In this document: piece by piece, positions 9,213-36,859 of the stretch
Layout of the letters: each line of letters begins with the position of its first letter
Numbering within the stretch: the first letter of the stretch is position 1
Source: Circinaria calcarea
Lineage: Eukaryota
Length of the DNA: 38,864 bases
NCBI GenBank assembly: GCA_051942165.1
Contig: JAVECS010000028.1
Location: 1 to 38,864, forward strand
Direction of reading: 5' to 3'
Position numbers and translations under genes: made by a program
Notes under the pieces: model-generated
Databases searched by the model: none
The model's input: the letters and a program-made list of their open reading frames with translations, nothing else
Told to the model about the DNA's origin: nothing

Positions 9213-10904
9213 ATGGCATTGTCTTCTCAAGCCAATACTCTCGAGGCGGAAGGTCTAACGACTCTTCCCCTGAAGAAATTCTCCTATGTCACGACCCGAC
9301 CGTCACATGGAAAGCTTCTGTGGACGCATTTACCACAGCGGGACAATCTCTTTGCAGTTTTCGATTTTACTACAGCCAAAGACCTTGAGGGGCTAACTGT
9401 GAAAAAGAAATTTCTGAGGTTTATACGTGGTGACGAGATCTTGGTATGCAGCTCCACCAACAAACTCTACCGTTGAATAGTTTCTACTCTAGTTGTTCAC
9501 TGTTCTGATTCTTCTTCGACGTTTAAGGAGGAGATAGATCTCGCAGAGCTAGGATCTCATGTACGCCACGACGTTAATACAGCAGAATCGCAATCTCAGC
9601 CTGTCTCCGATTCTCAGCGCGCCATGGTAATTATATCCAAGAAGCCTATGATAGCCTTGCGCTACCATCTTCCGAATGGCCTGGTAAGTTTTTACACTTC
9701 AGCCTTTTAAAAGGCTCTACCGCTCAATTTTCATCAGGTTCGAAGGCTGCAGATCAAGTTTGATCCCATTTCCGGCTATGACACGGCTTTGGAGCTACTT
9801 AACATTCTTGCTATTCCCATAGAGAACAGAGATGTAGGAAGTCAAAACCAGCGGGCGTTGGGTCCAGATCTTGATAGGACACCGGCCGTACCACCCTCAG
9901 CCTCTGTTGGCTCCTTGACTACTCCAAGTTATTATCCCATTCCACTTCACACATCCAATAGCCGCCTTGAGGCCGGCGCCACGCAGTCTGCCGTCCTTGT
10001 ATTGAACTCTGCCGAAGCTCGGCCAGGTGTTGTGGACACGACTCGCCGGTCCCTGTTTCAGCAAGAGATTGCAGAAGCTCGTCGTCAAGCTACCGCGTCC
10101 ACCCCCCTTCCCGATGACACGCTAAGCCAACTACTACCTCCGAAACGTACCCTCCCTTTTCCTGATCCACCGGCGAAGTCCAACCGTCAAAAGCACCTTT
10201 CGGAGGTCTCTAGGCCCATGTCTGACATTTTAGGCGCGGAGAAAGCAAGCGCCAGAAAGCATAAGCCGAGTAAGGGTGCCGCTGGTGAAAAGAAAGCTGC
10301 AATTGGAATCGGTCCAAGCAGCAGTTTTATGGCACCTCCGAGCTCATCTACTCCATTTATGAGTAAAAAGGGCGCAAATCTTAACATCAGGACGTCCGCG
10401 AACGGACACGCGACGTTTGGTTGTGCCGAACCCTCAGAATCTCAAGAAAGGAGCGCCGAACCTCAACATAAGCTAACAAGCTCAATACTCGGCGAGCCTG
10501 TTGCACATGCACAAATCTTTACAATCCAGCCAGGTAGCAATCGGCTGGAGGAAACTGACCAAGATGTAGGGATTCTTGTATCTGCAGGCTGGGTCGCACA
10601 GGTGAATGCCTTTATGCTGCACCACAGCGCCAGGGCTACGAAAGAATGCCGAGTCGAGGATACACTCACAACTGAATTTAAGGACAGGGTTGAAGTTTTT
10701 ATGGAAAAGCACGGTGGCTGTTGTGTACCCGAGGCTACCACCCAGCTGCAACCATCCGCACTCGCTGAATTCGCCAAGCTATCGGAAACTGAGCGGTCGG
10801 CGGCGATGGATGTCGTCATCGTCGAGTGCCTCAACGATGACGACTTTATGTGCCTTGTTGACGAAGTGGACAAGTCGTGGCAGAGGGTTGGATGGAAGTT
10901 GTGA
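9213..10904 (+). CDS. REC114: Meiotic recombination protein Rec114-like (N-terminal PH-like domain, disordered middle, C-terminal helical domain), ~517 aa
   Basis: Exons 9213-9443, 9528-9683 and 9738-10904 (GT..AG introns) join in frame with no stops. N-terminus LPLKKFS..WTH..LFAVFD..LRFIRGDEIL|EEIDL..IISKKPMIALRY..|VRRLQIKF..YDTALELL. C-terminus IVECLNDDDFMCLVDEVDKSW resembles the recalled Rec114 terminal motif (CLxDxxFxxxVEEVEK). Confidence 0.75.
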
Positions 10905-12395: not shown

Positions 12396-13247
12396 ATGTC
12401 TTCAAATTCCATACGCTATTCTTCTTCTCATCAAACTCCATCTTCAGACAATAACTTACGCGGCATTACCTATCTTAACAAAGAGGCAGCAATGGCAGAG
12501 GAGGAGAATTATCTTAGTGACGGAGACGAGCAAGATCTCTTGACTCTTGTAGATGGGATGACTAGCAGTCCGCAAAAGCCCTCCACTATTGTTACTCCTT
12601 CCCATTCATCCCCACCGAAGCTACAATGGAATCCGCCAACTTTCTACAAGCCAGGTCAACCATTCTCGTCATCCACAATGGCAGCCGTACCTATGCCTAC
12701 TCCACCCAAATCGTATTCCAAGCCAATGTTACCTACATATCCGCCTCACGTTTTAGCCGTTGACGGCAAAGGTAATCCAGTCCCATTCGCTCGCCCAGCC
12801 TTTCCTGATCCCGTTCGCGATCGCTCTCCTATCCTTGGTCTCTCCCGTTCCGTGGCACTCCGAACGTGCTTCCGCATCGGCGAAGCTCTCAACGCCGCAT
12901 CGTCCGCATTCCAAAACAGCATTGATATTGTAATAGAGCTTTACGCGCGGATCACATACTCGAAAAGAGATGGCAATGGGTTGAAACGATATTTTCAATT
13001 TGCAGACATGTTTCGCGGTGAACTTCCGCCATTCTTGAACGGGTCTTATGATGTTTGGAAAGGCTCTGATTTATGGGAACTCGACTCTAGCGAACTCCTC
13101 GGTGAAAATGGTAAAGGCCAGATCGCGAGGGCAGTGGGAAGGATCAAGAGGGACGAGAACACCAAGACGTGGAAAATGACAACTTTGAGCATCTGGAAAG
13201 CCAATTGGGACGACGTTGGTTATGCCAAAGGTGTTGTCTGCGCTTGA
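12396..13247 (+). CDS. SPATA22-like (RPA2-like OB-fold) meiotic ssDNA-binding protein; C-terminal domain open, original N-terminus (from ~11816) damaged
   Basis: LRTCFRIGEAL..IELYARITYS..KRYFQFAD..LWELDS..GQIARAVGRIK..TTLSIWKANWDD aligns by eye with the recalled SPATA22 OB fold (LRIISAVIES..FEVLAVL..KTFLMRD..FYEIDR..GRVHRCVGNY..CVSVRPAS). The upstream frame from ATG 11816 has stops at 11885, 11954 and 11966, an intron at 12045-12112, and a frame change before 12396. Confidence 0.6.
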   Translation: MSSNSIRYSSSHQTPSSDNNLRGITYLNKEAAMAEEENYLSDGDEQDLLTLVDGMTSSPQKPSTIVTPSHSSPPKLQWNPPTFYKPGQPFSSSTMAAVPMPTPPKSYSKPMLPTYPPHVLAVDGKGNPVPFARPAFPDPVRDRSPILGLSRSVALRTCFRIGEALNAASSAFQNSIDIVIELYARITYSKRDGNGLKRYFQFADMFRGELPPFLNGSYDVWKGSDLWELDSSELLGENGKGQIARAVGRIKRDENTKTWKMTTLSIWKANWDDVGYAKGVVCA

Positions 13248-14989
13248 AGCAGACTTACGAAGCAGACCTGTCGAGCAGAAAGGGAGAGCTGGCTGGAGGA
13301 GGACTAACGTATTGCTATACATCTTGCTACTAGCCCCAGGACTTACTAACCATAACAGCTACTAATGTGTAGCTTAGTATAACTTTCAGAAATGGTTTGC
13401 TGGCCAACAGGCTTTGGGTAAGCGCCAGGGAAGATCTCTAGTTCTATAGCTTCATTGATATACTAGCCTATCTCCTTAACGCAGAAGTTCTTGCAAGCTT
13501 CCGTCTCATTTTCTTTATCGTGCTCATCCACCCGTGAAACGACCCAGTTAAATTAAAGCGGACACCTGCATGTTTTGTATGTATAAGTCAGGCAGCATTA
13601 CAAAGCCTTAAAGGTATCTTCATCATTATCGTTAAAAACCTGGTCTCTTCTAGTGTGCACCTGGTGCTACCTATATCCAACCATCTCCCACTAGTAGCGA
13701 CTCTCGCTTTGTAAAATTAGATATAGTCGGAGGAGCAGCCTAAGGCAACACTTTCAGAGCACTAGTGTGATACTTTTCAGCGCTCTTAGAATTACTTTTG
13801 GAGTAACATCCGGCTCTCTTCGATCCGCCATCGCCCACTCCTCCGAGGGGTGGCCATATGCACGAATGAATTGGTGCATCTACTAGGCTCTACTCTACTG
13901 GCGCCTGATGATTGGCACATGTCTACAGATCTATTCAGGATCCACATCGCAGCTTCTTATGAGCTTCAACATACTCCTATTATTTAAATCTAAGAATCTA
14001 TACTTTTTTTTTTAAACGTAACCTGCAGTTTGTTTGTCATTCATAAATTAGGCATGAACACAACCTACCCCTCACCTTATTTGTGACGTGAACACCGAGT
14101 TCGTCCTTTATTATATAACATCACTCCTCCTTCGCCATTGTTGTCCTTAAATCTCTGTATTCTCCTTCATCTAGAACTACATCTGTTACTGTAGGCTTGA
14201 CTGCTCTGGGATTTTCGCTTTACAGCGCCCGAAAACGTTTTCTACAATAGATTCCTTGCGTGCTCTGTGAGTAGCATAGCTTCTTGTAGAGTCAAAATAA
14301 CAAGAACGCCCAGCAAAAAAGCTGACTAAAACTCCAGTCTCCATGTTACAGCCCTATGTTCGCAGCCAGCGGTTGCGGTCGGACCGACTTTGACTGCATT
14401 TGCAACAACAATTGGGGCTTTTAGCAAAACTTGTTATGTTAGTGTAATGTGAGCCTAGGCGCGGAATAACTTTAGCCCTAGCCAATACATACCCTGTATG
14501 GAAAGCGCCCCTGGCTTAGCTTTACGTAGCTCCGTTGTACTTCCATAATGGAGCTATGTTATATTAGTGAACGTTTCTGACCAATACCATGGCCAAGATT
14601 TTGTGCCAGCATGGTAGGCCTGCCACCTTGGCCTTACTATATCAGGCTTAAGGTCTCGGCGCCGGGCTCCCCGTACATAACATACCTCTTACAAAACTTT
14701 GCTAAAAAGCCCCAAATGTTTTCAACAGCAGCATCGGTGCTTGCCAGGGAGCCTCATGCAATAACGTTGACCTTCAGGGTACGTTTTTTAACTAACCCGC
14801 ACCACCTTTTCTTCGCACACCAGCCCCCACTTCCCTAGTCTCCATCGTCTGCGCTCCCGTCGCCAGTACCCGCTATCCGACTCGATACTCCGATACCCCC
14901 ACTTGCGCCGCACCACCGGGAAGTCAACTACCCCCCTCCATACCTTGCTTGCTACCACAAACCCATAAACTCTTTCTCTCTACCTTACC

Positions 14990-15780: not shown

Positions 15781-16370
15781 TGTTTGGATCCCCAGCCTGA
15801 GGGTAGGATAGAGGAGGAGATCTTTGGGAAGGAGGGCGTATTAGGAGGATTGGTGAACATGGGATTTGGATCTGTATTGACATTGGGTGCGATTCTGAGC
15901 TATGTCACTGAGCCCTAAGGTTCAAAGATCTTGATTAGAGTGTGAACTTTTGCACCTTGGACGGAAGATTAGCTCGATGGTCGATGCTTGTTCCTTCTAT
16001 TTGACTTCACGAGACTAAATTCCACGCCGGCTAAAGCAAAACTGTAGATCCGACCCTAGTGCTCCTCTTTTTCCATGTGGTAGAGCCGAGATAGCTAGAT
16101 AGCTAGATTGCTCATGTGCTCCATGCCCCTTCCGCCAGGGTCAATGAAGCCACTATGTCCCATGTGGGTGGATCCAATCGAGTTGCTGCATATTCTTCGA
16201 ATTTTTCTTGATCGACCGTAAGCCAAGCTCTCGGGAATGAAGTGGTTGCAAAATACATGCGTTAATGATACGTATATAAGAAGCTTCAGAGTATCATTCT
16301 CGGAAAAGGGATTCCCAGGACTATCGGAATGCTGGGCAGCTCGAGGGGTCGAAAGCATTAGAAGGACGAC

Positions 16371-17580
16371 TTAATCCTCGTCAGTCTCCGTTTCTTCGGG
16401 ATCGCGAGCTCGATCGGTGAAAACTCTGTTCAACAGGTGAGCAAGAGGAATGGGGCCGTCACGTGGAAGCTATTGACTTACAGGTGGCTTTCGTAAAACT
16501 TTAGCATCTAGCGATCGTGCAGTTAGATTTGACCATGATTTGATCAAGTGTACCAAGGAGTAACGTACCCGCTGCGGACATGCAACATAGACAGTTGACA
16601 GCTTCGCCTTTGAGACGTACCACGAGCCTGTTTCGTCCTTTGCCGCCCAGACTAGATAGGCATACTTTTCGTCGCCTATGCCAGCAGTCATCTCGATGCT
16701 CATCACATCGTTTTCCCATGCTCCTGGTGTGACAGGCGGTGGCATCCAGGCATCAGCGATGACCGGATCCTCATCGTCCTCGACCTCAACCTCCTCTTTC
16801 TTCTTTCGTCCCGGCCTTCCTCTCTTAGCGGATGTTGCCGTCTTTTGCTTCTTCAAAGCAATATCGGGCGTGTCAGAGGTATCGGGCGTGTCAGAGGTAT
16901 CTGGCGCATCGGCTTCGGGTTTCGTAATGCTTTTGCGCCCGCGTTTTTTTGTAGATTTCACACCTGGTTCACCACCGATCTTATCCCAGTACTCTTGGAG
17001 TAGTTCTCGTGCTCCCCTGTGGAGATATTAGTCAAATGAACCTTAGACCTCGAGGGATTCCTAAGGGTTGGAAGGAAAAACGTGGATAATGTACTCACTC
17101 TAAATTCTCCTTTACTTCCCAGGTGAGATCCACCTTACTGTCGTAACCAAGCCACTTGATCTGATAACGTGGCACTTTCTTTGGTTCGACATGTCAGTCT
17201 TGTCTGAAAGGGTATTGAACTTCACAGAGACTATCTTACATCGTCCCATTCGAGGTTGTGACCAAGGATCTTCTCGACAGTGTAGCTGCATTTTCTCTTC
17301 AGTGTCCATTTCACCCAAGTACACCATCCGTATTTACACCTTTTCTTCTTCGTCTTTACCCTCATCTGACGCCAAACTCAGCGCGTCTGTTTCGGCTTCC
17401 GCATCATCTTTGACTGCTTTGCCCGTTGTCTTCTTGCCTTTGGCATTACGTGGCGGGATCTCTATCATCTCTATCTCCTCGGACGACGCTTCGCTCTCAC
17501 TTAGTGCCGCTAAACGCACCATATATGAGCAAATTGCGCACCAACAGCTTCGGACCGTTTAGAGTTGACTTACGAGGCAT
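16371..17580 (-). CDS. Heterochromatin protein 1 (HP1/Swi6-like), chromo + chromoshadow domains, 277 aa
   Basis: Seven exons 17580-17574, 17509-17338, 17285-17240, 17178-17099, 17016-16569, 16507-16482 and 16425-16371 total 834 nt in frame. Protein: MPPALSES..VYTVEKILGH..YQIKWLGYD..TWEVKENLEGARELLQEYW (aromatic cage Y/W/Y), basic hinge, then WENDVMSIE..AYLVW..VYVACPQRMLKFYESHLVF. Confidence 0.92.
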
Positions 17581-18360: not shown

Positions 18361-18486
18361 AATCACATATCCTTGCTGCAAGAAGGTAGTCAATATAATT
18401 CGGACGTCACTGGTAGGATATGTCTTTGCTATTGATGGTTATTGCCTTGCTTGTCTCCGAAATCTGGAGAGCAAATTTTCAAGGTA

Positions 18487-18653
18487 TTCCTTAAACCGTT
18501 GCTCAGGCGGACAGAACCGTGCACGCTATACTAGTAGGGGGAGGTTTTAATCCCCCGCATACATTACTCTGTAAATGGGCATTATTTCTCCGCTGATTGG
18601 CCAGAACTAAGGATTTATCAATGCCCGGAACCCCCGAGCAACGGTTTAAGGGA
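18487..18653. mobile_element. MITE, 167 bp, ~21-bp TIRs with TA target-site duplication (Tc1/mariner-type)
   Basis: Left TA|TTCCTTAAACCGTTGCTCAGG. Reverse complement of right end TA|TCCCTTAAACCGTTGCTCGGG. The 16-bp core CCTTAAACCGTTGCTC is perfect. TA at 18485-86 and 18654-55. Confidence 0.85.
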
Positions 18654-18699
18654 TAGCTTATACCAACCAAGCATGCCTACCGCGGAAGGTAGCATTATA

Positions 18700-20520: not shown

Positions 20521-22636
20521 CTTGGCGCTGAGGGAAGGAGGAAGGCGTGGAAATCGGATACTGATGGAGAACAAAGGAAAGGGGATCTGATCAAACCTAA
20601 GATAAAAGTATTCCTAATAATGAAAGAGGAGGGAAATCGGAGTAAAGGCACAGTGAACATTGAGAAGTACGAGGGTAAATATATAGCGAGAACACATAAA
20701 GAAGAGTGGGTTAAGGAAGTCGGAGGAAGAAAGGTCGGCAGAAATAATCTCAGGGGAAAGGAGTTAGAGGGACGACAAGATTGATGAAGAATATTTAATA
20801 TCGAGAGCTTTCGATTTATCTAATACTACATTCGTTCCCGATTGTTGCGACCACTAATATGAGATCTCTGTTTTAAAAGTGAGGTATTGCGTCGCTCTCA
20901 GTAAGAAATGCTGCGCTTTATGGAAAAGGCGACGTCCACCAACATAACCAATTATATGAATCGACGCAACGAAAGATGTTTATTACCGTGTAGAACTGGC
21001 CCAACATATATTTCGTCGTGAAGATGGATGCTAAGCCATCATGGTTGGTTTCTTCATTATGGAGAAGAGTCGCGCAAAACCTGACAACCGATTGCTTGAG
21101 ATATTTGGCTTTATAGAGTAACTGCACCGTCAAAAGCATCGAGACGTATATTCTCTCGGAGCTCTCACTATTATCCCTATCCACGCTCCCTATCCAAACC
21201 GCTGTTGAACTGATAGACGTGGAAATCTTGTACTGCCGTGAACTCAGACCGTGTGTCTGTTATGGGTCTCTCAGGTTTACTTTGGTTGCAAGGGTATTAG
21301 TCGTTAGCACCACGCTAAAGCCACTAATTATTACTAATCTAACTGGTGGAGAACGAGGGTCTAGCTATATTATGCTGCAATTAGGCGATTACGAATAGTG
21401 ATCACGAAAAGCTTATTTGAACGAAATACCAAACGAATATTTGGCATGCATGTGATCGTGGCAAATAACGTATTAGGTATGGTTCAAGGATAGGGAAAAT
21501 TGCGTTACAGGCATAAATTTCACGTATTCCCCACATGTATTCTAGATTCTTCAGTAGTAACAATAATGAATACCGATTCGCACTATATATTCAACATATT
21601 ATGCATCGATCTACTATTGCCACGCTAACGACTATTACCCATTCGATGCAGGCTAACGGTGAGTAAGCGATGAAGCTAGTCTCAGTTAGGAAGCGCTAGT
21701 ACCTGTTGCCACTTCTCGGCTTGGGTCATGCTCGCATCACAAGAGAATTTGTACGCGGAATCCTTTGGAGTCGGATCGTCCCTCGCTGTCCTTCGGCGCC
21801 TTTACAGCTATACGATAGTATCGCCTCGCGCAGTTTGGCTTCAGTGCGGAAAGACGACTTGCGAGGGAGATTTGGATCGAGGTCAAGGTCAAGGTCGAGC
21901 ACGGAGGAGGACTAGAGTTCTCCTTGTTTTTCTTTCCTTTCCCTAGCGAGGGAGGGGGAGCTTCATATTTACAACAGGGGGGGGAGCCTAGGAAACTTAT
22001 GGTATGTCCAAAAGCTGTTGGGTATTCGGTATAGTTTTGAAAGGATGAAGGGGGACGGATGGAGAGAGAGAGAGGGTGAGAAACAGCTAGAGGATGGGTA
22101 GCATTTGAGCACATGTTTTCTGTTCGGGAAGAGGGGCTGTGGTATGTAGAGCGAGTTATTTATTAGCTTTCCTCTTGATTTCTTTCTTTCTTTCTTCCAG
22201 CATCGAAAAAGGGGGCAGGGTTTGCGTTGCGGCTATGGGGGGTAGGTAGGGGTATGCTATAGCTCTCTCCGAACCTCCTGTCCCTTCTCAACAAGAGGTA
22301 TAAATGACTGCCCACTGGCAATTCCCTTTCCTCCTTGTTCCGAATTGAGCGTTCCACGCCGTTACATTTGCGCAACAAAAATGTGTATAGCAAGCATGAG
22401 CCGGAAGCTATGCACCTGTCACGATATATCTTTTGTATCCCGCACCCCATTCGATTCTAACCTGCTGCGCACTAAACACCGTGTATCTCTCCCTTTTCTC
22501 CCCTAAAGTGTCCTTGATGCTGCGGTTTCGGGGGACCAAAGGGGCCAGCAGAAGGCTGTTCAAACGCTTAGACGTCAAGCAGCATGTTCTCCTCGAAGGG
22601 GTTGGCGACTGATCTTTCGTTAGTCGCAATCGGGTA

Positions 22637-24182
22637 CTATACCGGCCCCGTTTCTGGGTTATCGAGCAGTTCGTCGTCGTCATCATCTTCGTTACTGCCA
22701 TGACCCATTCCCTCGTCCTCATCCTCGGAAAATAGCATTTCCTCTTTGTCATCTTCATCGTGAAGGCCTCTACCCAGCATCTCCTCCTGATCACTGGACA
22801 AGGAGGGCTCGTCAGGCATTTGGAACGCCGTCTCGGGTTCTTCATTGTCCAGCATCTCGTCTGATGCACGATGTTGGTCCGCGGCAGGGGTCTGAAGTGG
22901 CTTTAGTTTACGAGCCGCCTGGCGGTCGAAGAGGCGGTGTTGGATCAAGTTCCAGAGACGGGTCTGGAGGGCTACTGTAAGAGTCTGTGGGGACATGGTA
23001 AGGAAGGGGATGCCATTGAGTTCGGCTTCCGGTTCGCAATTAAGAGGTGAGGACAATAGTGTGTCGATTTTGGAGCCAAGCACAGCCGATTTGGCGCGGC
23101 GGTGTATGGAGGCTATGGAATGAGATATTCTAGGAAGGAAGCGGTTGCGCTGACAGACTGCCTGTAAGAATTACCAACGGCAGCCTTGGAAAAGGGCTAA
23201 GGTCTGTACTTACATGGAGGTAGCCAGGGCTGAACAAGGCGGGGGAGATCTCTGCGAGTTTAGGGCCGGGAGAGATCTCTTTCCTTTCAACACCAGGGGA
23301 CAAGCGTATCTTGGTATCGTAGATGAATGAACGTAATATAGCGTCGACGATTTTTACCGCAGCGGTTATATCTAGAGCTTGGCGGTTTGGGGTGGAAATC
23401 GAACTGGAGCTCTTCCTTTTCCTCTTCTTTGCACTCGTGCGTGGTGTGACGGTGAAGTATGAGTTGGGAGTTTTCCCCGTTAGGTCAATATTTATCAACG
23501 GCCTAAATTCCGCAGAACAAAGATCGTTATCTTCAAATAGAATATCGTTGCCAGAGGTCTTTCCAGGGTAATCAGATATCTTATGTTTGATCCTCTTGCG
23601 CACAATTTGGCTTGTCCTCAAGAAAATCAGATCGATCCTAACCTCTTCCAGCCCAGCGCAGGGAATGTCGGCCGGAGGTCTAGTATCGGAAACGATGAGT
23701 GTGCGTGCTTTAGTGGCGGATTTCGAGTTCCAGAAGGGCTGTGGACCATGCTTAAGTGAAAGTATCAACGTGGCCGAGCTGTCTGTATCGTCTATTTTAC
23801 AAGATGGATTACTAAGAGAAGGTTGAAGGTAAAGCTGAGACCACATCTAACAAATTTCTTAGTGGTAAGCAGCAACGTAAGATCAAAGATAGATTGAAAC
23901 CTCTGCGTTTTTGAGAAAGGAGCCCATATCTTCTATCAGGTCCCGTAATTCGAACTCATCCATACCTATACCATCTATTTTTATATGCAGAAAAATCTTG
24001 AGATCATTACCGCGGGCAATCCACAACCCACCAGCCGTGACTAAATCAATGCCACGGGTTATTTTCCAGGCAGGGAAGTCTAGCGGGCAACTAAGTCGTA
24101 TGGAGCACGTTGAGGAAACTTGTAGGCAAAGCTCCGTAAAACTATGAACGAGATTGCCAACCTCAACTAGTGCAGTCGACAT
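22637..24182 (-). CDS. Rec102/TOP6BL-like Spo11 partner (TopoVIB-like), ~479 aa with acidic tail
   Basis: Exons 24182-23901, 23846-23214 and 23161-22637 splice in phase 0 without internal stops. LKIFLHIKIDG..EFELRDLIEDMGSFLKNAEMWSQLYLQ..TLILSLKH and LAEISPALFS..FLPRISHSI parallel recalled yeast Rec102 segments (LKIKLNFKM..QELFTKLREIVGSSIRFWEEQLFYQ..VILSLKC; LEFEYPMVFS..LAPISYAL). Confidence 0.6.
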
Positions 24183-24449
24183 GATATAGAATTACAGAAA
24201 GTCCCTAAGAATTGTTGTGACAGTGACTCCAATCGACTTGGGGGAATATCGCCAGGGGAGGGTCGTCCAGTTATTTTAGCGGCGATTCACTGCCGTAAAA
24301 CTCAGCGGTACTCCGTATGGAATTCTTAATACAACGCTATTCTAAGGCTTTTCTGGTTAGAGCTCAATCTTAGTCTCATCACCCTCGAGGGAGAAAAACT
24401 AATAGCAGCGATAATTGTTTCCTTAACCTTCCTCTTCGGGCAACCATGT

Positions 24450-26440
24450 CAAGCGTTTAAGCGAACCCATGAAATTTGACGCCGTCCCGAAGCCACCCGA
24501 GAAGAAGTCATCTCATAGTATTGGGATTTCGGCGGCTAAACCCAGTGAAGTGGCTACTCATTCTATGATACCAAGTTGAATTGCTAACCGAAGGAAAAAT
24601 TCAAGAGTTTCAGCTTTAACCAAGCACTTTAAGCAATCAAGTCGTGAGTTCGAGAAAAAAACGCCTTCAGGAGCGCCGAAAGCGGGCAGCAAAGAGTGGA
24701 CAGTCTCGTGCGTATCCTATGGCATCATTGAAGTCTGTTGTGGAGGTCTACCGCAATGTTCATGGGGCTGTTGAAGAGAGAACCAGCGGATGAGATTCAC
24801 TTGAAATCAAGCCGTCTCATCGTGAACTCCAAGGTTCAACTTCTACCGCGGATGGCATGCCCCTTAACGATGAATTGAACACTGCGGGTGACGTTTCACA
24901 CACAGAGAGTACTGCCACTGAGGAAACTGCTGCGGAGGACACAGCTGTGGAGGACACTGCTGCGGAGGACACTGTTGCAGAGTATACATAAACGGATGAT
25001 AATACCCATGTGGACAGCCACCCCGGTCCCGACGCAGAGAACGAAACGACTCGAAGTGACAAGGAGACCCTACTAGTTGAGATCGCAGATCTGCCTAAGA
25101 AGGACGGTGTGTTGTCGCCATGTAAGGAGCAGCTTGATCTAAAGCTTGAGCTACGGAAGCACGAAAAGACATCGCTCATGAGAATGCTGACAAACATCTG
25201 GGCTGAGAAGTCTGCGAGCGGATGGCAACCATTAAAGTATCCATTTGATCAACCGGATTGATTCAGACAATTCTGCGCGACAACGAACCTGCTCACTGAT
25301 CACTTTCACCCTGGGCTCTGAAGATTATTAGGTCAAGCTATAGAAGAATCAGGAGAAAAGTGGTGGTCTTAGAGGAAGGCATGATAGGAGCCATCTGCGA
25401 ATTACTCTACTTGATACTGACGAGCTGATGGAGGTTGAACGATCTCTCCTACGATCGACCGGCACCCATCTCAAGTATCAATTCCAAGAGGGCTCGGCAA
25501 AGATGCTTTGCAAGTTTTTCTACGCCGAACAAATCGATGCTGTTCGCCGGAAATGTGGCGTTGCAGAGCGAATCGTCGAGTCCTTATCTAGATATTTGAA
25601 ATGGGATTCCAAAGGTGGCAAAACTAAGTCGGTCTTCCTCAAGACACTCGACGATCGCCTTGTTCTCAAATTCTCTCTCCCCCATCGAGACGCAAGCCTT
25701 CCTTCGGTTTGCTCCCGCTTACTTTTGGATCATGTCCGAGGCCCTGGTTCCACGCGCTTCCGTCTGAAGATGCTCTTGTTCTACCAGATTGTCATCAAGA
25801 GCCCCGTCACTGGCGTCGAGTTCAACTGGTTCCTCCTCGTCATGGAGATCCTCTTCTACGACCGCTCGCCTACGCGCATCTTCGATCTTAAAGGCTTTAT
25901 GCGCAACCGGCGCATCCAATCCACGGGCGAGCAGAAGGAAGTCCTCTTGGACGAAAACATGGTCGAGTTCATCTATAAGTCGCCCCTGTCTGCGCGCTAG
26001 CATCCCAAGAAGCTTCTCAGAGCAAGCGTCTTCAATGGCACACTGTTCCTCTCGCGGCAGAACGTCATGGACTACTCGCTCATGATCGCCATCGACGAGG
26101 GCAGGAAAGAGTTGGTCGTGGGCATCATTGATTGTATCCGCACCTATACCTGGGACAAGAAGCTCGAGAGCTGGATAAAGGACCGCGGGAAGAATCGGTC
26201 CACGGTCACGTCGTCGAGGAGCCGGTTCAGGGAAGTGGTGGGGAGATATGTGCTCCAGGCGTCTGAGTAAGTCATTCCCCGCCCCTTCCTAGCCTGCGGT
26301 GGAAACGTGAATTTGGTACTAACGGTCACTTGCAGCTGCTGGCACCAGTTCCAAGCGCTACAGATCGTGGCGCGGCCGACACGGTTTGACGATCGGGTTT
26401 CTAGTCCCGACATGAAGTTTAAGCAGGTGATTGGGGTCTG
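24450..26440 (+). pseudogene. FAB1: Fab1/PIKfyve PI3P 5-kinase C-terminal fragment (PIP5K domain), decayed
   Basis: VSALTKHFKQSSREFEK, HEKTSLMRMLTNIWAEKSASGWQPL, HLKYQFQEGSAKMLCK..WDSKGGKTKSVFLKTLDDR, RIFDLKG..RNR, VMDYSLMIAIDE..VVGIIDCIRTYTWDKKLESWIK. Stops, frameshifts and deletions. The last intron (GTAAGT ~26267..CAG 26335) is retained. FYVE/CCT N-terminal region absent. Confidence 0.93.
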
Positions 26441-28320
26441 AGGGCCTTAAGTACTAGTGAGTTTGAGATGTGCATAGCGAAAGGATCATTGTCGTGTATT
26501 AGGGGGGATTACAATACTTATGTAGAGGGATATATCAGGGGATGATGGTTACATTCGTATTGGAGGAGCGGTTTTTTTATGGACTAGGATAGATTGTAGT
26601 TACGACTTATGAAGATTGTTTATAAAAACAAGGCTTAAGCGGAGCTTAGCTCTAGTAGAGAAAATGGAAGTTTTCAGTAAGATTTTCGCTCGTTCTCGCA
26701 TTCTGCCCCAGCAGCTCCTATTATATCTTTGCCGAAATGTCCCCAAGGGATGCATTCCCGATATCCAAGCGCCAGGGTGACGATTCGAGAACTAAGATGG
26801 TGTTCTGAGTTGCAGCCGGTGAGAGGAGAAGTTCCGTAGCTGCATTTGGTCCTCTGGCATATCCTATCTGAAATACGTAGTCCAGAGCCGGTACTAGTGG
26901 GTCTGCAGCCCTTTGAGTGTAAGTCCTAGCCAAGGTACTGGACCAAGCCGGCGATGATGACGGACAGACTCTGGGATCCGTTAGGCCGATAAATCTTTGA
27001 TATGTCTATTTTACTTACATTGTGCCTCTAGGACGAAAGCAGGTTTGTCGATTTAGCGAGATTGGTAGCTTCAACGGCAACTCCTGGCAGACTGGGTTGG
27101 CAATGGGGGAAGCCGCCCTTATCTTCCTTTTCTACTTCTGCTGAGCAGCTATGCAACGTAGCGTATGCGGTTGGCTAGATTATTGCTCAATCGTGAATCA
27201 TTGTCATCCAATTACGCTTCCTTTCACCCAAACAGCGTTCCAGCCTGCGATAGTCCCGAGAAACCTTCTCCAAGAAATCTATAGGCCATACTTTCGCGGG
27301 GCTGCACAGTATTCTTACTGGTTGATTCCTTGCCGTGTTCGAGACGGCGGATTCAGTACCTTTGCGGTGCTCCCTAGCGTAAGGATCCTCCCCATGTAAT
27401 CAGGCTGGTCTTCACTTTCAACTTTCAAATTCACACGGATTCTTCCACTTTGATCTTGACTATACAATGGCCGGGTACCACCACTAGTCCTAGGAAGCGA
27501 CTCGTCATATCTGCTTTCTTCATCTCTAGTGGTGAGTGCGAGTCTGCAGTCGGTGATGTAGATGCGAGCGTGAGCGTAAATTGAGTAGTGGGAGGACAGT
27601 ACTCATAGCAGCGGGCGAGGATGACATTGCGTTCCTGTTTCGGGGTAGGTTAGCCATGTAGTTAGGTTCGATAGAAGAGACAGGCCAAGAAAGTACATCG
27701 TCGGTGCATTTGAACTCGCCGACGAACATGCGGGTGTCGTTGGTGTGAACTCAAAGGAGCTTATTGAGAAGGGATGTCAGGTAGTTTGTCGCGTCAGTTG
27801 GGTCCATTGGGAAGAAAACCGAAGGTTCTCAAATCAGTGAATTGGGAACGGGATGAGATAAAGATGCCCTACCCTATCTCGATAAGGATGTGGGAACAAG
27901 GGGGCTCAACAAGACTCCTAGTATCTCGGCTTAGGGGGGCAGTGAGGCGCTACCTTTATCACCAATATCCTCTGATTTGAACTCACACCTCTCTACAACT
28001 AACACCTTGAATATTATGGTATTATATATGAGAATATCTATAAACTACTCCGTTCGCTTTAGAAGAAGCTATGATATCTACATTCTTTGCGTGTTTTGGC
28101 GAGCTTCGGCACCAAACCTCCCAATACTTGCCCTAAAGCACAAAGTAAGTACCGAATTCTACTTTTCTTGCACCCTCATTCTTGCCGTCCGAGAGCTTCC
28201 CTCCGTCTCAATCCTTCACTTCACCTTTAGCTTGGTATAGTGACTGCTAGCTCGTTGACTGCTATTGTCCTGGCGGCTTTGCAGTCTTGCTCTCACTTCT
28301 CTCACTTCACCATCGTATCC

Positions 28321-30114
28321 ATGATGAAGCTTTTTACTGGTTTCGATGTTCGAGTCTCCCGTTTACCGAAAGCTCCAAAATACAATCGGCTTTCCGTTTC
28401 AACTCACACCATTAGACCACCGGCCCAGGATTAGGATCCTCTGAAATGTAAGCCAACTCACAGATGGACGACGGAAGAACGGACGGTACTCTGCACCCTC
28501 CAGAGGTGGTTTTCGTCTTCCGAGGAGGGTAACAATCGAATGATCACACTTCAGGCTATACGCAAGGTGTTCGTCCTCTACTTTGCTAATAGTTCTGTTG
28601 AGTCGAAAAGCACTAGGGCTGGGCTTAGTAATGGCGCGGTTGCCTCGCAACTTGCTGAAATTTTGCAAGAAGGACTAGGTAGTCTGGCTTGGAGAAATGT
28701 GTATATTGGCACCAACTTTATCAATGGTAAAAATGACTGGGCCAATACGAGAGCTGAGCTAATGGTAACTGCTCGTGAGAATCATATTGGCTTGATTGAT
28801 CAAGTCTTGGAGAATAAAGAACAAGTCGAGGCAAGGCTAGGCACAGGGATCAAGCGGAAGAAGGAAGAGAGATGGGATTATAAGACAGGTGTTTTAGGCA
28901 ATATAATCGACTGTATGAATACTAACGAAGATGATGAAACGCTTATCTGGAAAAGGCGTAATACATATGCGCCGAGATTTCTGTCAACTCCTCGAAAACG
29001 ATATTATTAAAAAGAAATCGGTCTTCTTGCACCTCTCACAAGTCCGGATAAGATACCTTTAAGCTATATAGGGATGTTGTCAGAAGACATGTGACTTGGC
29101 GTTTAAGATAGGGGATGATCCGAGGTATTTTTAGAATCGAAGGACCTATCGAAATAGAACTACTCGTTTCTAACATTTCACAATTATGGCATAAACACTG
29201 CCAAAGGTTTCCGTGCTGGGGCGTTCCTCTTCCGTCAGCCGATCCGTCGCCGCCGCCAAATTACACCAGTCAAGTCTTTAAAGAAACTGCTATTATTCAT
29301 CTGACGCCACTCGAGAAGCCATCTTCTTTGATCTCTGTGACAATGTCGCCATTACGACCCCTACACAGATGTTTAAAGTCTATATCCAATGGTAGTATTG
29401 CTATTATCGATCTACAGTATCTTGCACTCCATCAGTCATGCGCTTACCCTCGCCTGTACAACACTGGCGATGTCATCCATCAATTCGGAATCCGGGGAGT
29501 CAATTTAAAGACGGGTCAGAAGTACTACTCCAATCGAGCTCGTGAGGTGAGTAAATATAGCTCATAGCATATCAATACTAACTGGCGACAGTTCCTCTTC
29601 GGGGAACGTATCGAAGCGGAGGCCATTTTAGTAGTTTTCTCGAAATCCGATTTCTTGGAATACTCTAAAACACATCCTAAACTTCGGAAAATGCTGCGCT
29701 TGGATACTTTCCAAGAAGCGAAAACGGCAAATGAGAACACTAAAGGACTGAAGAGAACGGGTTTGAAGGCCATAGGTCATAGTCTCGGTCATTTCCTTGC
29801 CTGCGTCGTCAAATTACCCCTTGCTCGCCTGAGATCTGCCGCACTGCTTTTTACGCGATCTTTTAGATCTGAGGGTAACCGAAACCCGTGACTAGCGTTA
29901 CTTACCGGCGTTGAGACTGGGTATCATGATTACCTTCGCCAACTGCTCCTTATGGGAAATCTACCCACTATTACAGTGGTCATCGAACGTCTTCACAAGC
30001 CACAGAAGGGAGCAGAGAAAGACTTGGAGTTCTTTAAGAGCCGCGAGAGAATCGAGAACATGCTTGGACTCAACGGGCGTTAATCACCGCCTAGACGATC
30101 TATGGACTATCTAG
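28321..30114 (+). pseudogene. Fungal hypothetical with N-terminal HRWTxEER motif and C-terminal ADP-ribosyltransferase-like (DUF7587-like) region, decayed
   Basis: In-frame stops at 28432 and 29008. Motifs HRWTTEERTVLCTLQRWF; SLISVTMSPLRPLHR..IAIIDL..RARE|intron|FLFGERIEAEAI. Domain call from recalled motif pattern only. Confidence 0.5.
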
Positions 30115-31299
30115 GATGTGCACCAGGTTGTGCACTCGCTTCAGAAGTATCCCCCTCTCTTTCCTCGATAGCCTACGAGCTCAACGATTTCTCATAATGT
30201 ATTCCTCGGTTCTACACGTCAATTCTGTCATTTCCAGAAAGCCGACGGTGAGTTCTATCTCACTACTGCCAAGACTCTCCTACAGATTTACTGTCTCCAT
30301 CTTCCCTCCGGGATCTCAGATCTACACGGACACTGCATCCAGTACGCTTGTCAGTTACTGCAGGTAATTCTCGTCTTCTCATTCTCTTGTGCAGCCGACA
30401 GAAGATCTTCGATACGGTATATGGTCAGATGTCTGCAAATGCACGAGCACGTTGGACCAGGTCAGGCATGTCAGACACCGGGTTCGAAATCTAAGTCATG
30501 CATCCTTTCCCTTCTCAAGATGAAATGACTGCATATAGAAAATCCTTCACGTGCACACTCCATCCTCTATATTCTCTCCGTACTCCCATCTCGTTCTTCT
30601 TCTCCTTTTAGATAGCTGGACGGCCAATGAAATGCAAGAGGATAATTTCCGTTGGGTAATTGAAATCAAAAAGACTACTTACTGTACTTTCTATGTGACA
30701 CCGATGCGGTGAGCCCCTGATTGGTAATCCTACTATTCGGACGTAGTTGAAATCCTATGTTTTAAGGCGGTATGAGGGTACGTTTATAGAGTTTAGGTCA
30801 TAGCATATATGCATTGAGATAGATACCGACCCAGATCCCTGGGAAGTGTACGAATATCAGATGGGCGCTGATCACAGTACGGACATATTTACATGAACTC
30901 GGGGCGCTGCTGGCTTGAATGCAGTACATCTTAATCTCGAATCGCCTTGCAGGCAGGCAAGTATCTTATAGGATACGGGGATCTACAGACTCTCACTCCT
31001 CCATTATATCTACATCCACCTCCTCCGCTCCTCGACCCCTCTTCCCGTAGCCCTCCCTCTCCAACCCTTCCGTGCCTTGATCGGCTTCAAGAACCCATCA
31101 ACGTGAACAGCGTCAAAAATTTCATCTTCAGACTCCACTACAAAAACCAAATGCCCATGCATCTCCTTCAAATGCTTTTGGAAATTTCAGTTCCTGGCGA
31201 AGCCTCGTTTGGACCTGGAACAATCAATGACGGGACAGTATAAGATACCATTTACAATGCGGGCGCTCAGGGGCTTTAGGGGGGTTATTGGGGAAGTAT

Positions 31300-31895
31300 C
31301 GCTCAGACTATTCTCGAAATCGCTATCGCTTTGGCCTATTTCATCATCGGGATGAGGGTAGGAAGGTAAGTGGTCCCGCGTATTTTGTCGTTACCTTCCC
31401 GCAGAGTGCGGAACTCGATCCCTTCGCCGAAGAGATCGGCGCATCGTTTCGCGGTTCTGCGGATGGTGGATTGGTTCCAGCCTGTCATGGACGCGACGCT
31501 TAAGATGTCGCCCCAGTCCTGGAGACCGAGCTCTGGTCGACGACGGCTCCGACTTTGTGTCCGTGAGGTGGATGAGATGGATTTGCGGCGTTTTCTTATC
31601 GGAGGCCAGGAGGAGGCCTGTCATTGGCCAAGCCGTCCACTGCTTTGGAGGTTCCCAAATGCCATATTCGAGCATGGAATTTTCATCGTCTTCCTTAGCC
31701 TTCAGCAACTTCTGTCTTTTCTTCAAGGCATGTGCGTTGTAGAGATGAATGCTTAGATCAGCTGCCTTTACCCGGTCCAGGCTATTTGCTATAGCCCTAT
31801 CTGCCGCGGTCCAGCTTCGCCACATAGAAGGTGGATCGTGGAACTTGTTTGGACGTAATACTTCCAAGGAAGGAGATCTAGAACTTGTTCGCCGG
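31300..31895 (-). pseudogene. RRN9: RNA polymerase I factor Rrn9 fragment with internal deletion
   Basis: RPNKFHDPPSMWRSWT..SLDRVKAADLSIHLYNAHALKKR..WEPPKQWTAWPM (Rrn9 domain). After a frameshift this joins directly to the C-terminal motif DWGDILSVASMTGW..RTAKRCADLFGE. Confidence 0.85.
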
Positions 31896-31940
31896 CTTCG
31901 ATAACCCTAACCCTTACCCCCCCCTAGACACGGGGAGGAC

Positions 31941-32292
31941 AAGCGCCTGGCTATCCACGATGACGATAAATGAAAGGAGAGTTACTTTTCTCTAAAAACT
32001 AGAGGACGAAGTTGCAGAGGGCAGTTTCGCTATGCACTGCGCCGCTATGTTCGGTATACCGAACAAAGTTATCGAGCGGGCGAAGGTGGCTGCCAAAGAG
32101 AGGGACCATACCAGTCGGTTGAAAGAAAGCTTGGAGATGGCAAGAATGGGATGCTGGGTGCCACTTGGGGTACAAAGCGATGTTGCCCGGTTACTCCGCA
32201 AGGCTAACGAGGAAGTTGGGGAAACGGGTTTAGCCGTACTAAGGAAAGCGATCGAGGCTCTTTGGAATGGGCAAAAGTGTTTTAACCTCTAA
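31941..32292 (+). pseudogene. MSH6: Mismatch-repair protein Msh6 extreme C-terminal fragment
   Basis: KRLAIHDDD(frameshift)ERRVTFL*KLEDEVAEGSFAMHCAAMFGIPNKVIERAKVAAKERDHTSRLKESLE..WVPLGVQSDV matches the MutS-V terminal helix-turn-helix of fungal Msh6. A stop replaces the Y of FLYKL. Confidence 0.88.
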
Positions 32293-32707
32293 TATCATAA
32301 GGAGTCTACTATTGTCTCCCGCTGTTTGTGAGCTATATACTGGCATGTGGCTCGGCCATTGTCCGCTTAATTGCCTTTTGCGTCTTCACCGCAAGATACC
32401 CTTTAGCATATTTAATATGTAAACAGATAGAGCTGCATTTGCCATTAATTTCCTTGGCCTCGATACCTTCAAGTTTCCCGTGATCGACGTGACTCCCATG
32501 ACTGGACAAGAACGTTCTGAAAAGGTTCGCGCAGTTACCATGCATACCGAGAAAAGTAAGCCACACCGCAAATTAAGCTGTTATGTTGGCCTTCCTCGAT
32601 TACCTGATCGAACAAGCTTACGGTCATTGACGGAATGCTGTGCAACCAACGATCACTCTAACCTCCTTATACAAGCAGCGCATCGCTAAAACCTACAAAT
32701 GCCTCGC

Positions 32708-33567
32708 CTACTCTCTATCGTCACCACCTGATATCTCAGCGGCGACAACCCTGCCATCCGCAGCTTCTACGCCAACAGCCCCGACGTCGTCGAAATTGCC
32801 GCCTTCGTCCGCTGGCGCCAGGTCGCGAGAAGAGTCTTCGGCTTTTGCAATGGCGGGGTTATCTCCGTTCCCTTCATTCTTCCCGCCCTCCTCCATCGTA
32901 ACCTCTATCTGTACTGCTCGCTCTTCTTCCTCTTCATCCTGCCTGCCATCCCTTCCTCCCTTCACACGTTTCGCAAGGGGCTTCTGGACGTTGTTGTCAG
33001 CAAACGCGACCTTGGGCTTCAAAGCCGGCTTTCTCCCCTTCGTCTTAAGGGGGCACCATCTCCCCTTCCCCTTCTGCTGCTCCTTCTCCTCCCCCTCTCC
33101 CCGCTTGCACCCCATCGTCATCCTCCCCACCATCCCTTCTCTTCACGCGCTTAGATCCAGTCCTTGGAACCTTGTTATCCTCAGAGGGGCCCTTCGGCTT
33201 CAGCGCGCGCTTTCTCTGCTTCGCCTTAGGAGCAGCGTTCTCCCCGTCCCCCTGCCCCTCCACATTCCCATCCTCAAAGGTAAAGGCGGTGACGGCGTCG
33301 AGGCTCTTCTTGGCGCGCGTGAAGGCTTTGTTGGAAGATTGGGGGTTTGTGTGGTGAGTGAGAGCGGTGAGGCGGATGGATTGGGCTGTTTGGGTATTTA
33401 TTGGAGATGGGTGAGCTTGGGAGGAGGCAATGGGACTTCGTGGGGCTTACTTTGAATTCGGGCAGACACATGATTGCTGCCAGCAGGACTTTCCACTCGG
33501 TCTTGGTTAGGGAAGAGAGTGTGGTGGTTGTAGTTGGAGTGTCGAGTGAGGACGTGTCATTGTTCAT
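32708..33567 (-). pseudogene. Small fungal hypothetical (short helical N-domain + Lys-rich/acidic tail), frameshifted
   Basis: MNNDT..LTKTEWKVLLAAIMCLPEFK|intron 33450-33386|(frameshift)TALTHHTNPQSSNKAFTRAKKSL, then KAKQRKRALKPK and an acidic tail with another frame change. Confidence 0.5.
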
Positions 33568-36077
33568 AGCAATTGTAGGTATTGGGGTTAAGTGAGCTGG
33601 GTAGTCGATGGAGTAGCAAACAGAAAGAGGATAGGTTTTCAAGAGAAGCCAGCGAATGTGAGACTTACATGCTAAATTCACAGTCGCTCAGAAATTCCCG
33701 GTGTCCAGGGGCCTGCTAGAACTTTCCGGACTGTGAGTATAGAACTCAAGGGATAATGGTTTTAGGCATTGCAGCACTTGTAACTGAATAAGGTAAATAG
33801 TCATAACTTTCATGCATAAATTCCACCGATGCATGATAGTCTCGAAGGATCCAAGCCTTTTGAGATGTTAGTGAGAAGCCCAGATCGCTGGTTTGCAGCG
33901 AATTGTCAACTGATAGTGGTCTGCAACGAAGGCACGAACTCACCCTATCTTTCACTTGGGAACTTTCTCACACCAATTATGATATAGGACTGACAAGTCA
34001 TAGTGACTATCATGAAAAGCGGTGCTAGCCAGTAGCAGGCAATACGACTAGCTAGATTAATTTTGCGTGTTCCTTATTTGGAAGTTCTTTGAGCATTCCT
34101 TGAGGCCCGTCGAATATGCTCCATGACAGTACCCCGAACGATATTATTTGTACCATTTGGTTGCTGGTTTCCAACGTAAGGTCGAAATGGTTTGGCTTTC
34201 TTCCCATTCACCAAGTCCTTTTATTTACGTCGGGGCCTGTCTGGGTTCTCACAAGGTCGGCTACCCCAAATTTTGCTTTCTTCTCCTCAGGTCTGTTAAA
34301 CGCATCCTCGAACACGGGCAGTCCCATAGAACGCATTGTGATTATATCGATTTTAGTATTTGGGGGGGGGGGATATTTCTCAACGAGGATGAATGATGGT
34401 ATGTCGATGTGTTCACCAATGTCGGCGACGTAGCCAACATCCAGCAAGGGTGACCGTTTTTTCGAATCGGCAATGCAACCCAGGATGCACCTAGCCCAAA
34501 AAACTACTGTAGAACCGCACTGCAGAGCTAAAAGTCGCTAAGCCGCTTTTGGGCACAATTGCCAACATGGGTCTGAGGCATTTTTTTGAACCAGGGCGCG
34601 TGTTTGTGGCCTCAGGTGCGGACTGGCCTCTCAGGTGTCGCTTCGCTCCAGCAGGTACCTCTCTTGCTCTAGGTGTGTCGCTCCAGGTGGTTTGGCTCGC
34701 TGCAATTGCAGCGCTCCAGTATACCTCTCCAGTTGCATTACATCACAATCCTCCATGATAACTTCCTCGTGTACGGCCACAAAGACCTTGCTCGTACGTA
34801 TAGGCAACTTCCTTCGCCAGCGCAATAGCTAACCATCCCGATACTCCTTGCTTCCGATCACGCTCTGCATGCAGTACCCTGTACAATCTTCTGTTACAGG
34901 GCCTTAGTGGTTCGTGACGACTCAACAAAGAACGTGTATTAAGGAAACATCTATGCCAGCGTACCTATGAATCCCACTACTTGACCTCAAATTCAAACTA
35001 TAGATTCCACTACAATACAGTCATTTCTTGTTTTACACTGACCTGCCAGGACACGAATCTATCCCTTGCATCTACGGTATACCTTCAATCCAATCTCTCA
35101 CCTATAACACACCCGAAGCCGTCAATCGCAGAGGAATCTAAGCTATCAAAGATGTTATATAAAGATTTACGGGAAAGAGAATATCCTTACGGAGAAACAG
35201 CTGCCTTGTGCTTGGAGCGCGAGAGACTTTTATCTAGCTGAGGCCAAGCCTCGATACCAATAGGATTAAGTTAAGGTAATCAATTTCAGTCTCCAATGCA
35301 GAAGTAAGCAACGTGGGGTGTCAATCGCCTTATAAGCCAACTCCTTCCATACTCTCTCAGTATCCTAGGTGAAGATAGCTCCAACCCTTGGGGATTTCTC
35401 AAGATTGCTATTAATTCATAGAAATGTTATACATCCACACCACCCTTCTCTACTCGTGTACCACGAAGTGACCGTATTGCGAGATGACACAGTGTAGGGG
35501 AATGGGTGGTCAAGGTACGCGACCCCAGTCAGGGTGCCGAAGATATAACGGCCATTTGTGCGCTATGGTTTGAGGGATGGCGACCAATACTTAATGGCGG
35601 TTTGAAGTGCCACGTATACACAAAGCCGATGAGAAATCCGAAACTAAAAGCCAAGACCACACAATGCATTGGAATCTTTACCGGCCCGGGAACGCCTTGG
35701 GTATTTTTGTTCCCTAATCTACCGCTGTCCAACCCTGATCTTATTGTGCCCTAGTTTAACCTTTTATGTGCATTATCCTACATACTGCTTGAAGTGGCCA
35801 GCTCTAGCATACACGGAAGGCCTATTGTGAGCGCACGGAGCTCAGAATAAGATGTTCAGTGTTTGTTTCATGTAACCAATCATATCGTGAACTTGGTCAA
35901 GCCGCTATAGCAGCTTGGCTAAATCACTTGCTTGATATTTACAAATATCTGGCTAAACTACTCATATAGCCTGATTAGTAGCTTTCGGAACTATATATAT
36001 AATTTAGCAAGTAAATTACCTGATGGCATGGCTTGTGCATTCCGGAAAACATCTTTTGTTACTACTGCTACCCACTC

Positions 36078-36475: not shown

Positions 36476-36859
36476 CTCTTCGTGTTACTATTCTCTTCCG
36501 CTGCTGCTGCTCTCTTCGGTGACGCTGGCCCTATCAAGTTAGTCGAACGAAGGAGGGTCGAACAGCAGCCGAGGCACCTGTTGCTGATCCTGGGGGTGAT
36601 GGTGACATCAACAGGAGCATAGCAGTCAGTAGTACTCGTTCAATTACTTGGTTGCCTACACGGGCGGCTGGCCAAACGATTTACTTGGTGGATTATATGC
36701 GTGCGTTTCGTCAAATGGGCCGCTTGGTCATCTACAGGGACTTTCGAGTTACACGTGTAATTGACCAAATACCCTACTTGGTGAAACTACTATGCAACTT
36801 GGCCAAGTTCACGACTTGGTTGATTAAACGGAACATATCCACAACTATCACTGATGATC

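What the first reader, a model, noticed from the sequence alone, without database searches (positions are those of the whole stretch)
22637..24182. Cryptic Rec102/TopoVIB-like subunit in a filamentous ascomycete
The spliced 479-aa protein shows colinear matches to recalled S. cerevisiae Rec102 blocks: LKIxLxxK, ELxxxxxxxGS..W.QLxxQ, ILSLK, LxxxxPxxFS and LxxISxxL. The conserved Trp falls where the transducer WKxY-like motif is expected. An IDGIGM string superficially resembles a GHKL G1 box but may be coincidental. TOP6BL-family members are extremely divergent and often missed. The long acidic tail could be a Rec114-PH-binding element (inference).
Basis: partly seen in the sequence, partly recalled or inferred. 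Interest (0 to 1): 0.75.

Follow-up and report, generated by a model that had tools for sequence, protein, structure and literature searches.

The report
Duplicated Rec102-type Spo11 partner gene
This is a spare but still intact copy of the filamentous-fungus version of Rec102, the partner of the enzyme that cuts DNA to start meiotic recombination; the family is known, but its conserved tail motif and the DNA-binding homeodomain inserted in some relatives were not found described in the papers searched.

Summary
The three-exon, 479-aa gene folds confidently (pLDDT 78) and matches yeast Rec102 over almost its whole length (Z 12.4, 200 of 227 residues; next hit 5.4). It is transducer-only: IDGIGM is not a GHKL box. 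Such homologs were already modelled for Sordaria and Neurospora (PMC11746154), so the kind is known. (1) This copy is a relocated duplicate: the genome holds three copies, the native one among single-copy genes. The window is a mosaic of duplicated genes; 6 of 8 others compared are broken, while this gene, a Rec114 copy and an HP1-like copy stay open. (2) Family tails end in a conserved Met-Leu motif (44 of 94, background 7%), which this copy lost through a stop 23 codons early. (3) Four of 156 relatives, all Helotiales, carry a TALE homeodomain inside the switch loop, a candidate for direct sequence targeting of Spo11. Expression of this copy and the role of the tail remain untested.

The parts
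23901..24182 (-). Exon 1 (aa 1-94): first strands of the transducer sheet and the helix before the conserved Trp; holds IDGIGM (69-74) at a strand-to-helix turn
   Evidence: strands 2-15, 20-32, 54-70, helix 76-91
23847..23900 (-). Intron 1, 54 nt, phase 0
   Evidence: same intron in the other two copies
23214..23846 (-). Exon 2 (aa 95-305): W96 (WKxY-like Trp), remaining strands, disordered switch-loop insertion (172-253, about 105 aa shorter than in the native copy), start of the stalk and the conserved LAEISPALFSPGY block
23162..23213 (-). Intron 2, 52 nt, phase 0
22637..23161 (-). Exon 3 (aa 306-479): stalk helices and helical hairpin to about 390, conserved basic patch 385-393, then acidic disordered tail with repeated D/E-M-L motifs; ends at TAG 22639-22637
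22568..22636 (-). Lost end of the tail: 22 further in-frame codons and a TAA, carrying the family's terminal Met-Leu motif; coding in the other two copies, cut off here by the TAG
9213..10904 (+). Intact duplicate Rec114 (517 codons; exons 9213-9443, 9528-9683, 9738-10904), second copy on contig C1196
16370..17522 (-). Apparently intact duplicate of an HP1-like gene (label recalled from motifs; ends approximate), second copy on C2006
24348..26290 (+). Broken PIP5K (Fab1-like) fragment starting about 165 nt upstream of the ATG, in place of the native upstream region

Best explanation
The gene encodes the Pezizomycotina form of Rec102/TOP6BL, the B-type subunit of the meiotic Spo11 complex. Shown by model: residues 2-171 form the transducer sheet with the conserved Trp, 254-390 the kinked stalk and helical hairpin; there is no GHKL ATPase. 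Inferred from yeast Rec102: the hairpin and C-terminal extension grip the Spo11 winged helix and the basic patch at 385-393 helps bind DNA. Inferred, less sure: the long disordered switch-loop insertion and acidic tail, with repeated and terminal D/E-M-L motifs, supply the partner-docking role that Rec104 has in budding yeast, most likely to the Rec114 PH domain. The window's copy is a lineage-specific duplicate moved into a mosaic of copied genes; it was kept intact by selection for most of its history and is now probably a functional or slightly weakened extra subunit (shorter loop, terminal motif lost). Odds: family membership about 0.95; past selection on the duplicate about 0.85; currently expressed about 0.5; tail binds Rec114 about 0.35.
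For: Model on 110 sequences: pLDDT 77.9, pTM 0.72. Against 48,161 chains the top hit is 8uru_B, Z 12.4, rmsd 3.7, 200 of 227 residues, model 3-397 to chain 2-258; next Z 5.4; chain B is taken as Rec102 from its length and numbering (PMC11746154 section 9). Foldseek ranks the same chain 3rd and 5th (prob 0.96, E 0.02). A distant relative, P0100, gives the same top hit (Z 12.1). Pfam REC102 in P0068, P0091, P0100 (E 3e-4, 8e-4, 5e-3). 882 representatives at E<=0.001, named ones from lichens, Aspergillus, Dothideomycetes and Helotiales. Duplicate status: three loci, one clade with support 100; 9.4 kb beside the C159 copy is single-copy; similarity to C159 starts 5 nt before the ATG. Selection: versus C433, 0 frameshift gaps in 479 codons where 7.0 are expected from flanks (P 0.001), P(no stop) 0.044, omega 0.40 versus neutral mean 0.68, 2.5th percentile 0.45. 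Motifs: [DE]ML[LF]?[DE] 57 times in 97 tails versus 3.7 shuffled; ML in the last 8 residues of 44 of 94 tails versus 7% background.
Against: P0004 itself has no Pfam match and the three REC102 matches are below the curated cut-off; no Foldseek match at E<=0.001; sequence profiles find no Rec102 in the PDB. Omega alone is weak: broken neighbours also give 0.21-0.52 against intact donors, and window versus native is 0.62 on 271 codons. The copy lacks the native upstream DNA and has lost the terminal motif, so it may be silent or newly decaying. Several broken neighbours were copied only as fragments, so their decay does not prove special retention of meiotic genes. No eukaryote-wide consensus for the Rec114-binding motif exists (PMC9671922, passage).
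Confidence: 0.85

Rival explanations
1. True Rec102 homolog, but this copy is a silent or recently dead duplicate; only the native C159/C4699 copy works.
For: Native upstream region replaced; about 105 aa lost from the loop; nonsense change removing the conserved terminal motif; 6 of 8 other duplicated genes compared are broken.
Against: No frameshift or internal stop, splice sites kept, and the C433 sister copy is also open; unlikely under neutrality.
Confidence: 0.35
2. The extra Rec102, Rec114 and HP1-like copies are cargo of a giant mobile element (Starship-like) or accessory region and are kept because they change where or how often that region is cut or silenced in meiosis.
For: The window is a patchwork of 78-90% identical copies from more than ten contigs; the open copies are two break-machinery subunits and a chromatin protein; the genome has DUF3435 captain matches on 14 other contigs.
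Against: No captain match on this contig or on C433; no element ends found; only one Spo11 locus; whole-gene copies survive more easily than fragments in any case.
Confidence: 0.2
3. It is a GHKL-bearing TopoVIB-like subunit with an ATP site at IDGIGM.
For: The string resembles DxGxG.
Against: The protein begins at the first transducer strand; DxGxG occurs in 11 of 110 relatives, the N box in 0 of 110; G73 is usually P, S, D or H; the whole folded part is accounted for by Rec102.
Confidence: 0.01
4. The three copies come from a mixed assembly of related strains rather than from duplication.
For: Fragmented metagenome-derived assembly, 5,512 contigs.
Against: Native flank single-copy; one Spo11 locus; matches stop at gene or segment edges while the donor contigs continue into unrelated genes.
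Confidence: 0.07

Closest known systems
S. cerevisiae Rec102 (PDB 8URU/8URQ chain B; Pfam PF21736)
   Same: Transducer sheet, conserved Trp, kinked stalk, helical hairpin and C-terminal extension; no GHKL.
   Different: Switch loop of about 80 aa here (family median 126 between anchors) against 8 aa in yeast; acidic tail of 85 aa here (family median 156), absent in yeast Rec102; Rec104 is reported only in Saccharomycetaceae (PMC11746154 section 10).
Sordaria macrospora XP_003350816.1 and Neurospora crassa Rec102 homologs (Yu et al. 2024, PMC11746154)
   Same: Filamentous ascomycete, long switch loop (truncated in their figure), splice site next to the Trp motif (here exon 2 starts at M95-W96). 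Very probably the same orthogroup (inference; the sequences were not compared here).
   Different: Only modelled from strand A to the loop in what I read; tail motif, duplicates and homeodomain forms are not mentioned in the passages seen.
Vertebrate TOP6BL/TOPOVIBL (PF15091)
   Same: Transducer plus a disordered C-terminal region ending in a conserved motif; top three feature matches.
   Different: Has a GHKL-like domain; its REC114-binding motif is metazoan (PMC9671922) and was not matched here.
Archaeal Top6B
   Same: Transducer topology (2q2e_B residues 332-480, Z 3.9 only).
   Different: No GHKL, no H2TH, no switch lysine context.

Membership tests
Rec102/TOP6BL (transducer-only) | Central beta-sheet of the Top6B transducer | tested here: met
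   Strands within 2-171 at pLDDT mostly above 90; Z 12.4, rmsd 3.7, 200 aligned to 8uru_B
Rec102/TOP6BL (transducer-only) | Near-invariant Trp of the WKxY-like motif after short helices | tested here: met
   W96 in helix 94-98, 94% of 89 rows; equivalence to yeast W91 inferred from topology, residue pairs were not printed
Rec102/TOP6BL (transducer-only) | Switch loop between the last sheet strand and the stalk | tested here: met
   Residues 172-253 lie between strand 157-171 and helix 254-269; much longer than in yeast
Rec102/TOP6BL (transducer-only) | Kinked helical stalk ending in a helical hairpin | tested here: met
   Helices 254-269 to 387-390; alignment runs to chain residue 258
Rec102/TOP6BL (transducer-only) | Sequence profile match (Pfam REC102) | tested here: inconclusive
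   0 for P0004; 3 of 156 family proteins match below the cut-off; the profile also finds nothing in the genome
Rec102/TOP6BL (transducer-only) | Binds Spo11 and is needed for meiotic breaks | not testable with these tools
   Needs a full-length spliced Spo11 and genetics
GHKL-bearing TopoVIB/TOP6BL | GHKL (Bergerat) domain with N, G1, G2 boxes ahead of the transducer | tested here: not met
   No N-terminal extension in the family; N box 0 of 110, DxGxG 11 of 110
Metazoan TOPOVIBL REC114-binding tail | C-terminal motif docking on the REC114 PH domain | not tested
   A different conserved terminal motif exists; no complete PH domain was available as one sequence (database models P0160 and P0161 each miss an exon)

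The most novel reading that the evidence does not exclude
In filamentous ascomycetes Rec102 is a self-contained targeting subunit: its loop and tail replace Rec104 as multivalent Rec114-docking arms, and the loop is a plug-in site through which Helotiales attached a TALE homeodomain directly to the Spo11 core complex, choosing break sites by DNA sequence without a PRDM9-type chromatin step; in this lichen an accessory region keeps its own Rec102, Rec114 and HP1 set.
Probability: 0.2. Interest if true: 0.85.

Novelty: new variant of a known kind. Interest (0 to 1): 0.52.

Why it matters
TOP6BL is routinely missed in filamentous fungi (a 2024 paper reports only spo11 and a ski8-like gene among these factors in Trichoderma reesei, PMC11381340 passage); a family of 882 representatives with a fold-verified anchor lets it be found and deleted in Sordaria, Neurospora or Aspergillus. 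The terminal motif gives a precise test of how the core complex is recruited where no Rec104 is known. A homeodomain built into the Spo11 B subunit would be a new route to recombination hotspots. Retained extra copies of Rec102 and Rec114 in a duplicated region raise the question whether break-machinery dosage is under selection in lichen fungi.

Tried and rejected
Pfam on the three exons and on P0004: nothing. Sequence profiles against the PDB: no Rec102 (best E 1.7 and 8.3, unrelated). Foldseek: no match at E<=0.001, peptidase-fold rows tied with Rec102. Complex prediction of residues 1-400 with the first exon of this genome's Spo11: no answer, score 0.00, alignment not used, partner fold uncertain; no evidence either way. 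Tail with Rec114 PH could not be set up, as no complete PH domain was on hand. Sequencing runs: none was listed. Metagenome locus scan with alignment A2 did not run. Pfam REC102 over the genome: nothing rang anywhere. Language-model look-up of the gene at 12294-13247: unnamed Ascomycota clusters only. Repeat scan: no element ends. A profile of the four homeodomains found no further carriers among 156 proteins. GHKL reading and mixed-strain assembly were rejected (see rivals). Earlier scan notes: none. Literature searches listed no paper on lichen Rec102, on a homeodomain-bearing Rec102 or on duplicated Rec102/Rec114; only the top 6-20 rows of each were seen, subscription papers are largely missing, and the supplement of PMC9665070 could not be read and that of PMC12871325 (models across ascomycetes) was not opened; either may list these orthologs.

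Full report
Observation. The gene lies on the minus strand, 24182..22637, in three exons with two phase-0 introns (54 and 52 nt), giving 479 aa. It equals a database model, P0004, labelled by its source as a hypothetical protein of the lichen fungus Circinaria calcarea. The quoted strings are there, but only W.QL and PxxF/WSP are family-wide (73 of 110 each); LKIxLxxK and ILSLK are private (2 and 3 of 110).

Family. Pfam gives nothing for the exons or P0004. A profile of 12 close relatives finds 882 representatives at E<=0.001, of which the best 150 were listed; I aligned 110 proteins chosen for coverage. Of 20 looked up, 18 carried names, from lichens, Aspergillus, Dothideomycetes and Helotiales. 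Three of the 156 proteins scanned match Pfam REC102 below its cut-off (E 3e-4, 8e-4, 5e-3). The language-model look-up ranked vertebrate TOP6BL first to third (0.87-0.88), which the tool classes as a lead only.

Fold. The model (pLDDT 77.9, pTM 0.72) has a sheet in 2-171, W96 in a short helix, a disordered stretch 172-253, helices 254-390 and a disordered acidic tail. Against 48,161 chains the best match is chain B of the yeast Spo11 core complex, Z 12.4, rmsd 3.7, 200 of 227 residues, with the next at 5.4. Chain B is taken as Rec102 from its numbering (2-258 of a 264-aa protein; PMC11746154, section 9 part 1 read). Foldseek lists the same chain but only at E 0.02. All four structural features that Yu et al. 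list besides the Spo11 contact are present. There is no room for a GHKL domain, and IDGIGM sits at a strand-to-helix turn and is not conserved.

What is known. Yu et al. 2024 found and modelled Rec102 homologs of Sordaria macrospora and Neurospora crassa, noting a mis-annotated splice site at the Trp motif and truncating their long switch loops (PMC11746154; passages and sections 9, 10 read). A 2026 preprint modelled core complexes across ascomycetes (PMC12871325; passages and section 17). So the kind is known; I infer, without direct comparison, that this is the same orthogroup. Rec104 is reported only in Saccharomycetaceae, binds Rec114 in yeast, and the metazoan tail motif has no eukaryote-wide consensus (PMC9671922, passages). 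PMC9665070 and PMC12642689 (passages) did not mention these fungi; PMC11381340 (one passage) reports only spo11 and ski8-like genes in Trichoderma.

This copy is a duplicate. The genome holds three copies: this one, C433, and C159 whose last exon continues on C4699 (overlap seen by inspection), plus a fragment on C1352. They form one clade (support 100). C159 lies among housekeeping genes (labels recalled) in a 9.4-kb single-copy stretch, keeps a loop of 193 residues between anchors against 87 here (family median 126), and its similarity to the window starts 5 nt before the ATG. The window is a patchwork of 78-90% identical copies from more than ten contigs. Of 8 other duplicated genes compared with their donors, 6 carry 2 to 28 frameshift gaps and stops; Rec114 (517 codons) and the main exon of an HP1-like gene carry none (the other HP1-like exons were checked by eye). 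For Rec102 against C433, flanks predict 7.0 frameshift gaps and none is seen (P 0.001); P(no stop) is 0.044; omega is 0.40 against a simulated neutral mean of 0.68. Against this: broken neighbours also show omega 0.21-0.52, window versus native is 0.62, several broken genes were copied only in part, and the native upstream DNA is missing. One Spo11 locus was found. Captain-type DUF3435 matches occur on 14 other contigs, none on this one.

Tail and loop. Across the family both disordered parts are enriched in D/E-M-L motifs (tails 57 versus 3.7 in shuffles, loops 20 versus 0.6), and 44 of 94 tails have Met-Leu within the last 8 residues against a 7% background (3 tails under 40 aa were left out). 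The native and C433 copies end in this motif; the window's copy stops 23 codons earlier at a TAG, with the lost codons still in frame behind it, so the change is recent or an assembly error. Docking on the Rec114 PH domain is my preferred reading by analogy with TOPOVIBL and Rec104; it is an inference.

Homeodomain forms. Four of 156 proteins (Mollisia scopiformis, Cadophora gregata, Rhynchosporium secalis, Calycina marina; source labels) have a TALE-type homeodomain within the loop (PF05920, E 3e-14 to 1e-6). They fall in one 11-row subclade (support 88, fast method, long branches) together with 7 rows that lack it. The model of P0100 shows the homeodomain at 239-289 between disordered linkers and matches both Rec102 (Z 12.1) and homeodomains (Z up to 9.7). 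The recognition helices are divergent: the usual Asn is kept in 1 of 4 and the Trp in 2 of 4 (read; the consensus is recalled), so DNA specificity is uncertain. The window's gene has no such domain.

Verdict. A real Rec102/TOP6BL ortholog (about 0.95), of a filamentous-fungal architecture partly noted before; this particular gene is a retained, slightly truncated duplicate near a retained Rec114 duplicate. The assignment itself is of modest novelty. The terminal motif and the homeodomain insertions, which searches did not show in print, are the parts a specialist would want to test. Interest 0.52.

Noticed in passing
relatives P0026, P0059, P0099, P0100 (residues about 240-340): TALE homeodomain inserted in the switch loop of Rec102 orthologs of Helotiales; annotated by sources only as homeobox domain-containing proteins.
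   Followed up: partly
window 9213-10904 (+): Intact second copy of Rec114 (79% aa to C1196 in the last exon); both database gene models miss one PH-domain exon.
   Followed up: partly
window about 16370-17522 (-): Apparently intact second copy of an HP1-like gene (label recalled); all exon indels against C2006 are multiples of three; first donor site is weaker.
   Followed up: partly
window 11897-13247 (+): Partial, frameshifted copy of a conserved Ascomycota gene of unknown function (donor C1282); its C-terminal domain has no Pfam family.
   Followed up: partly
window 6653-8900 (-), 24348-28800, 31020-32260, 36825-38315: Decayed copies of ARID/RSC9-like, PIP5K/Fab1-like, DUF7587, RRN9, MSH6-like and F-box-like genes (ARID/RSC9 and MSH6 labels recalled).
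   Followed up: partly
window 3445-6134 (-): Two long open frames (409 and 399 aa) with no Pfam match and no second copy in the genome; one looks like a 2-oxoglutarate dioxygenase-type fold from memory only.
   Followed up: no
window 14410-14720, 18481-18659, 21372-21600: Short dispersed repeats with dozens of copies in the genome, one with 27-nt inverted arms; MITE-like.
   Followed up: no
window 1351-1660 and 36054-36454: Tandem arrays with 19-nt and 6/12-nt periods; the second is flanked by 38-nt inverted arms (35864-35901, 36798-36835).
   Followed up: no
G000:C433 and C970: A second mosaic colinear with window 22174-38500 at about 89% identity, so the whole patchwork was itself duplicated.
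   Followed up: partly
PDB 9ynu chain C: Weak (E 8.3) match of the family's LWxxMQ helix and acidic tail to an uncharacterised 433-aa chain; probably compositional.
   Followed up: no
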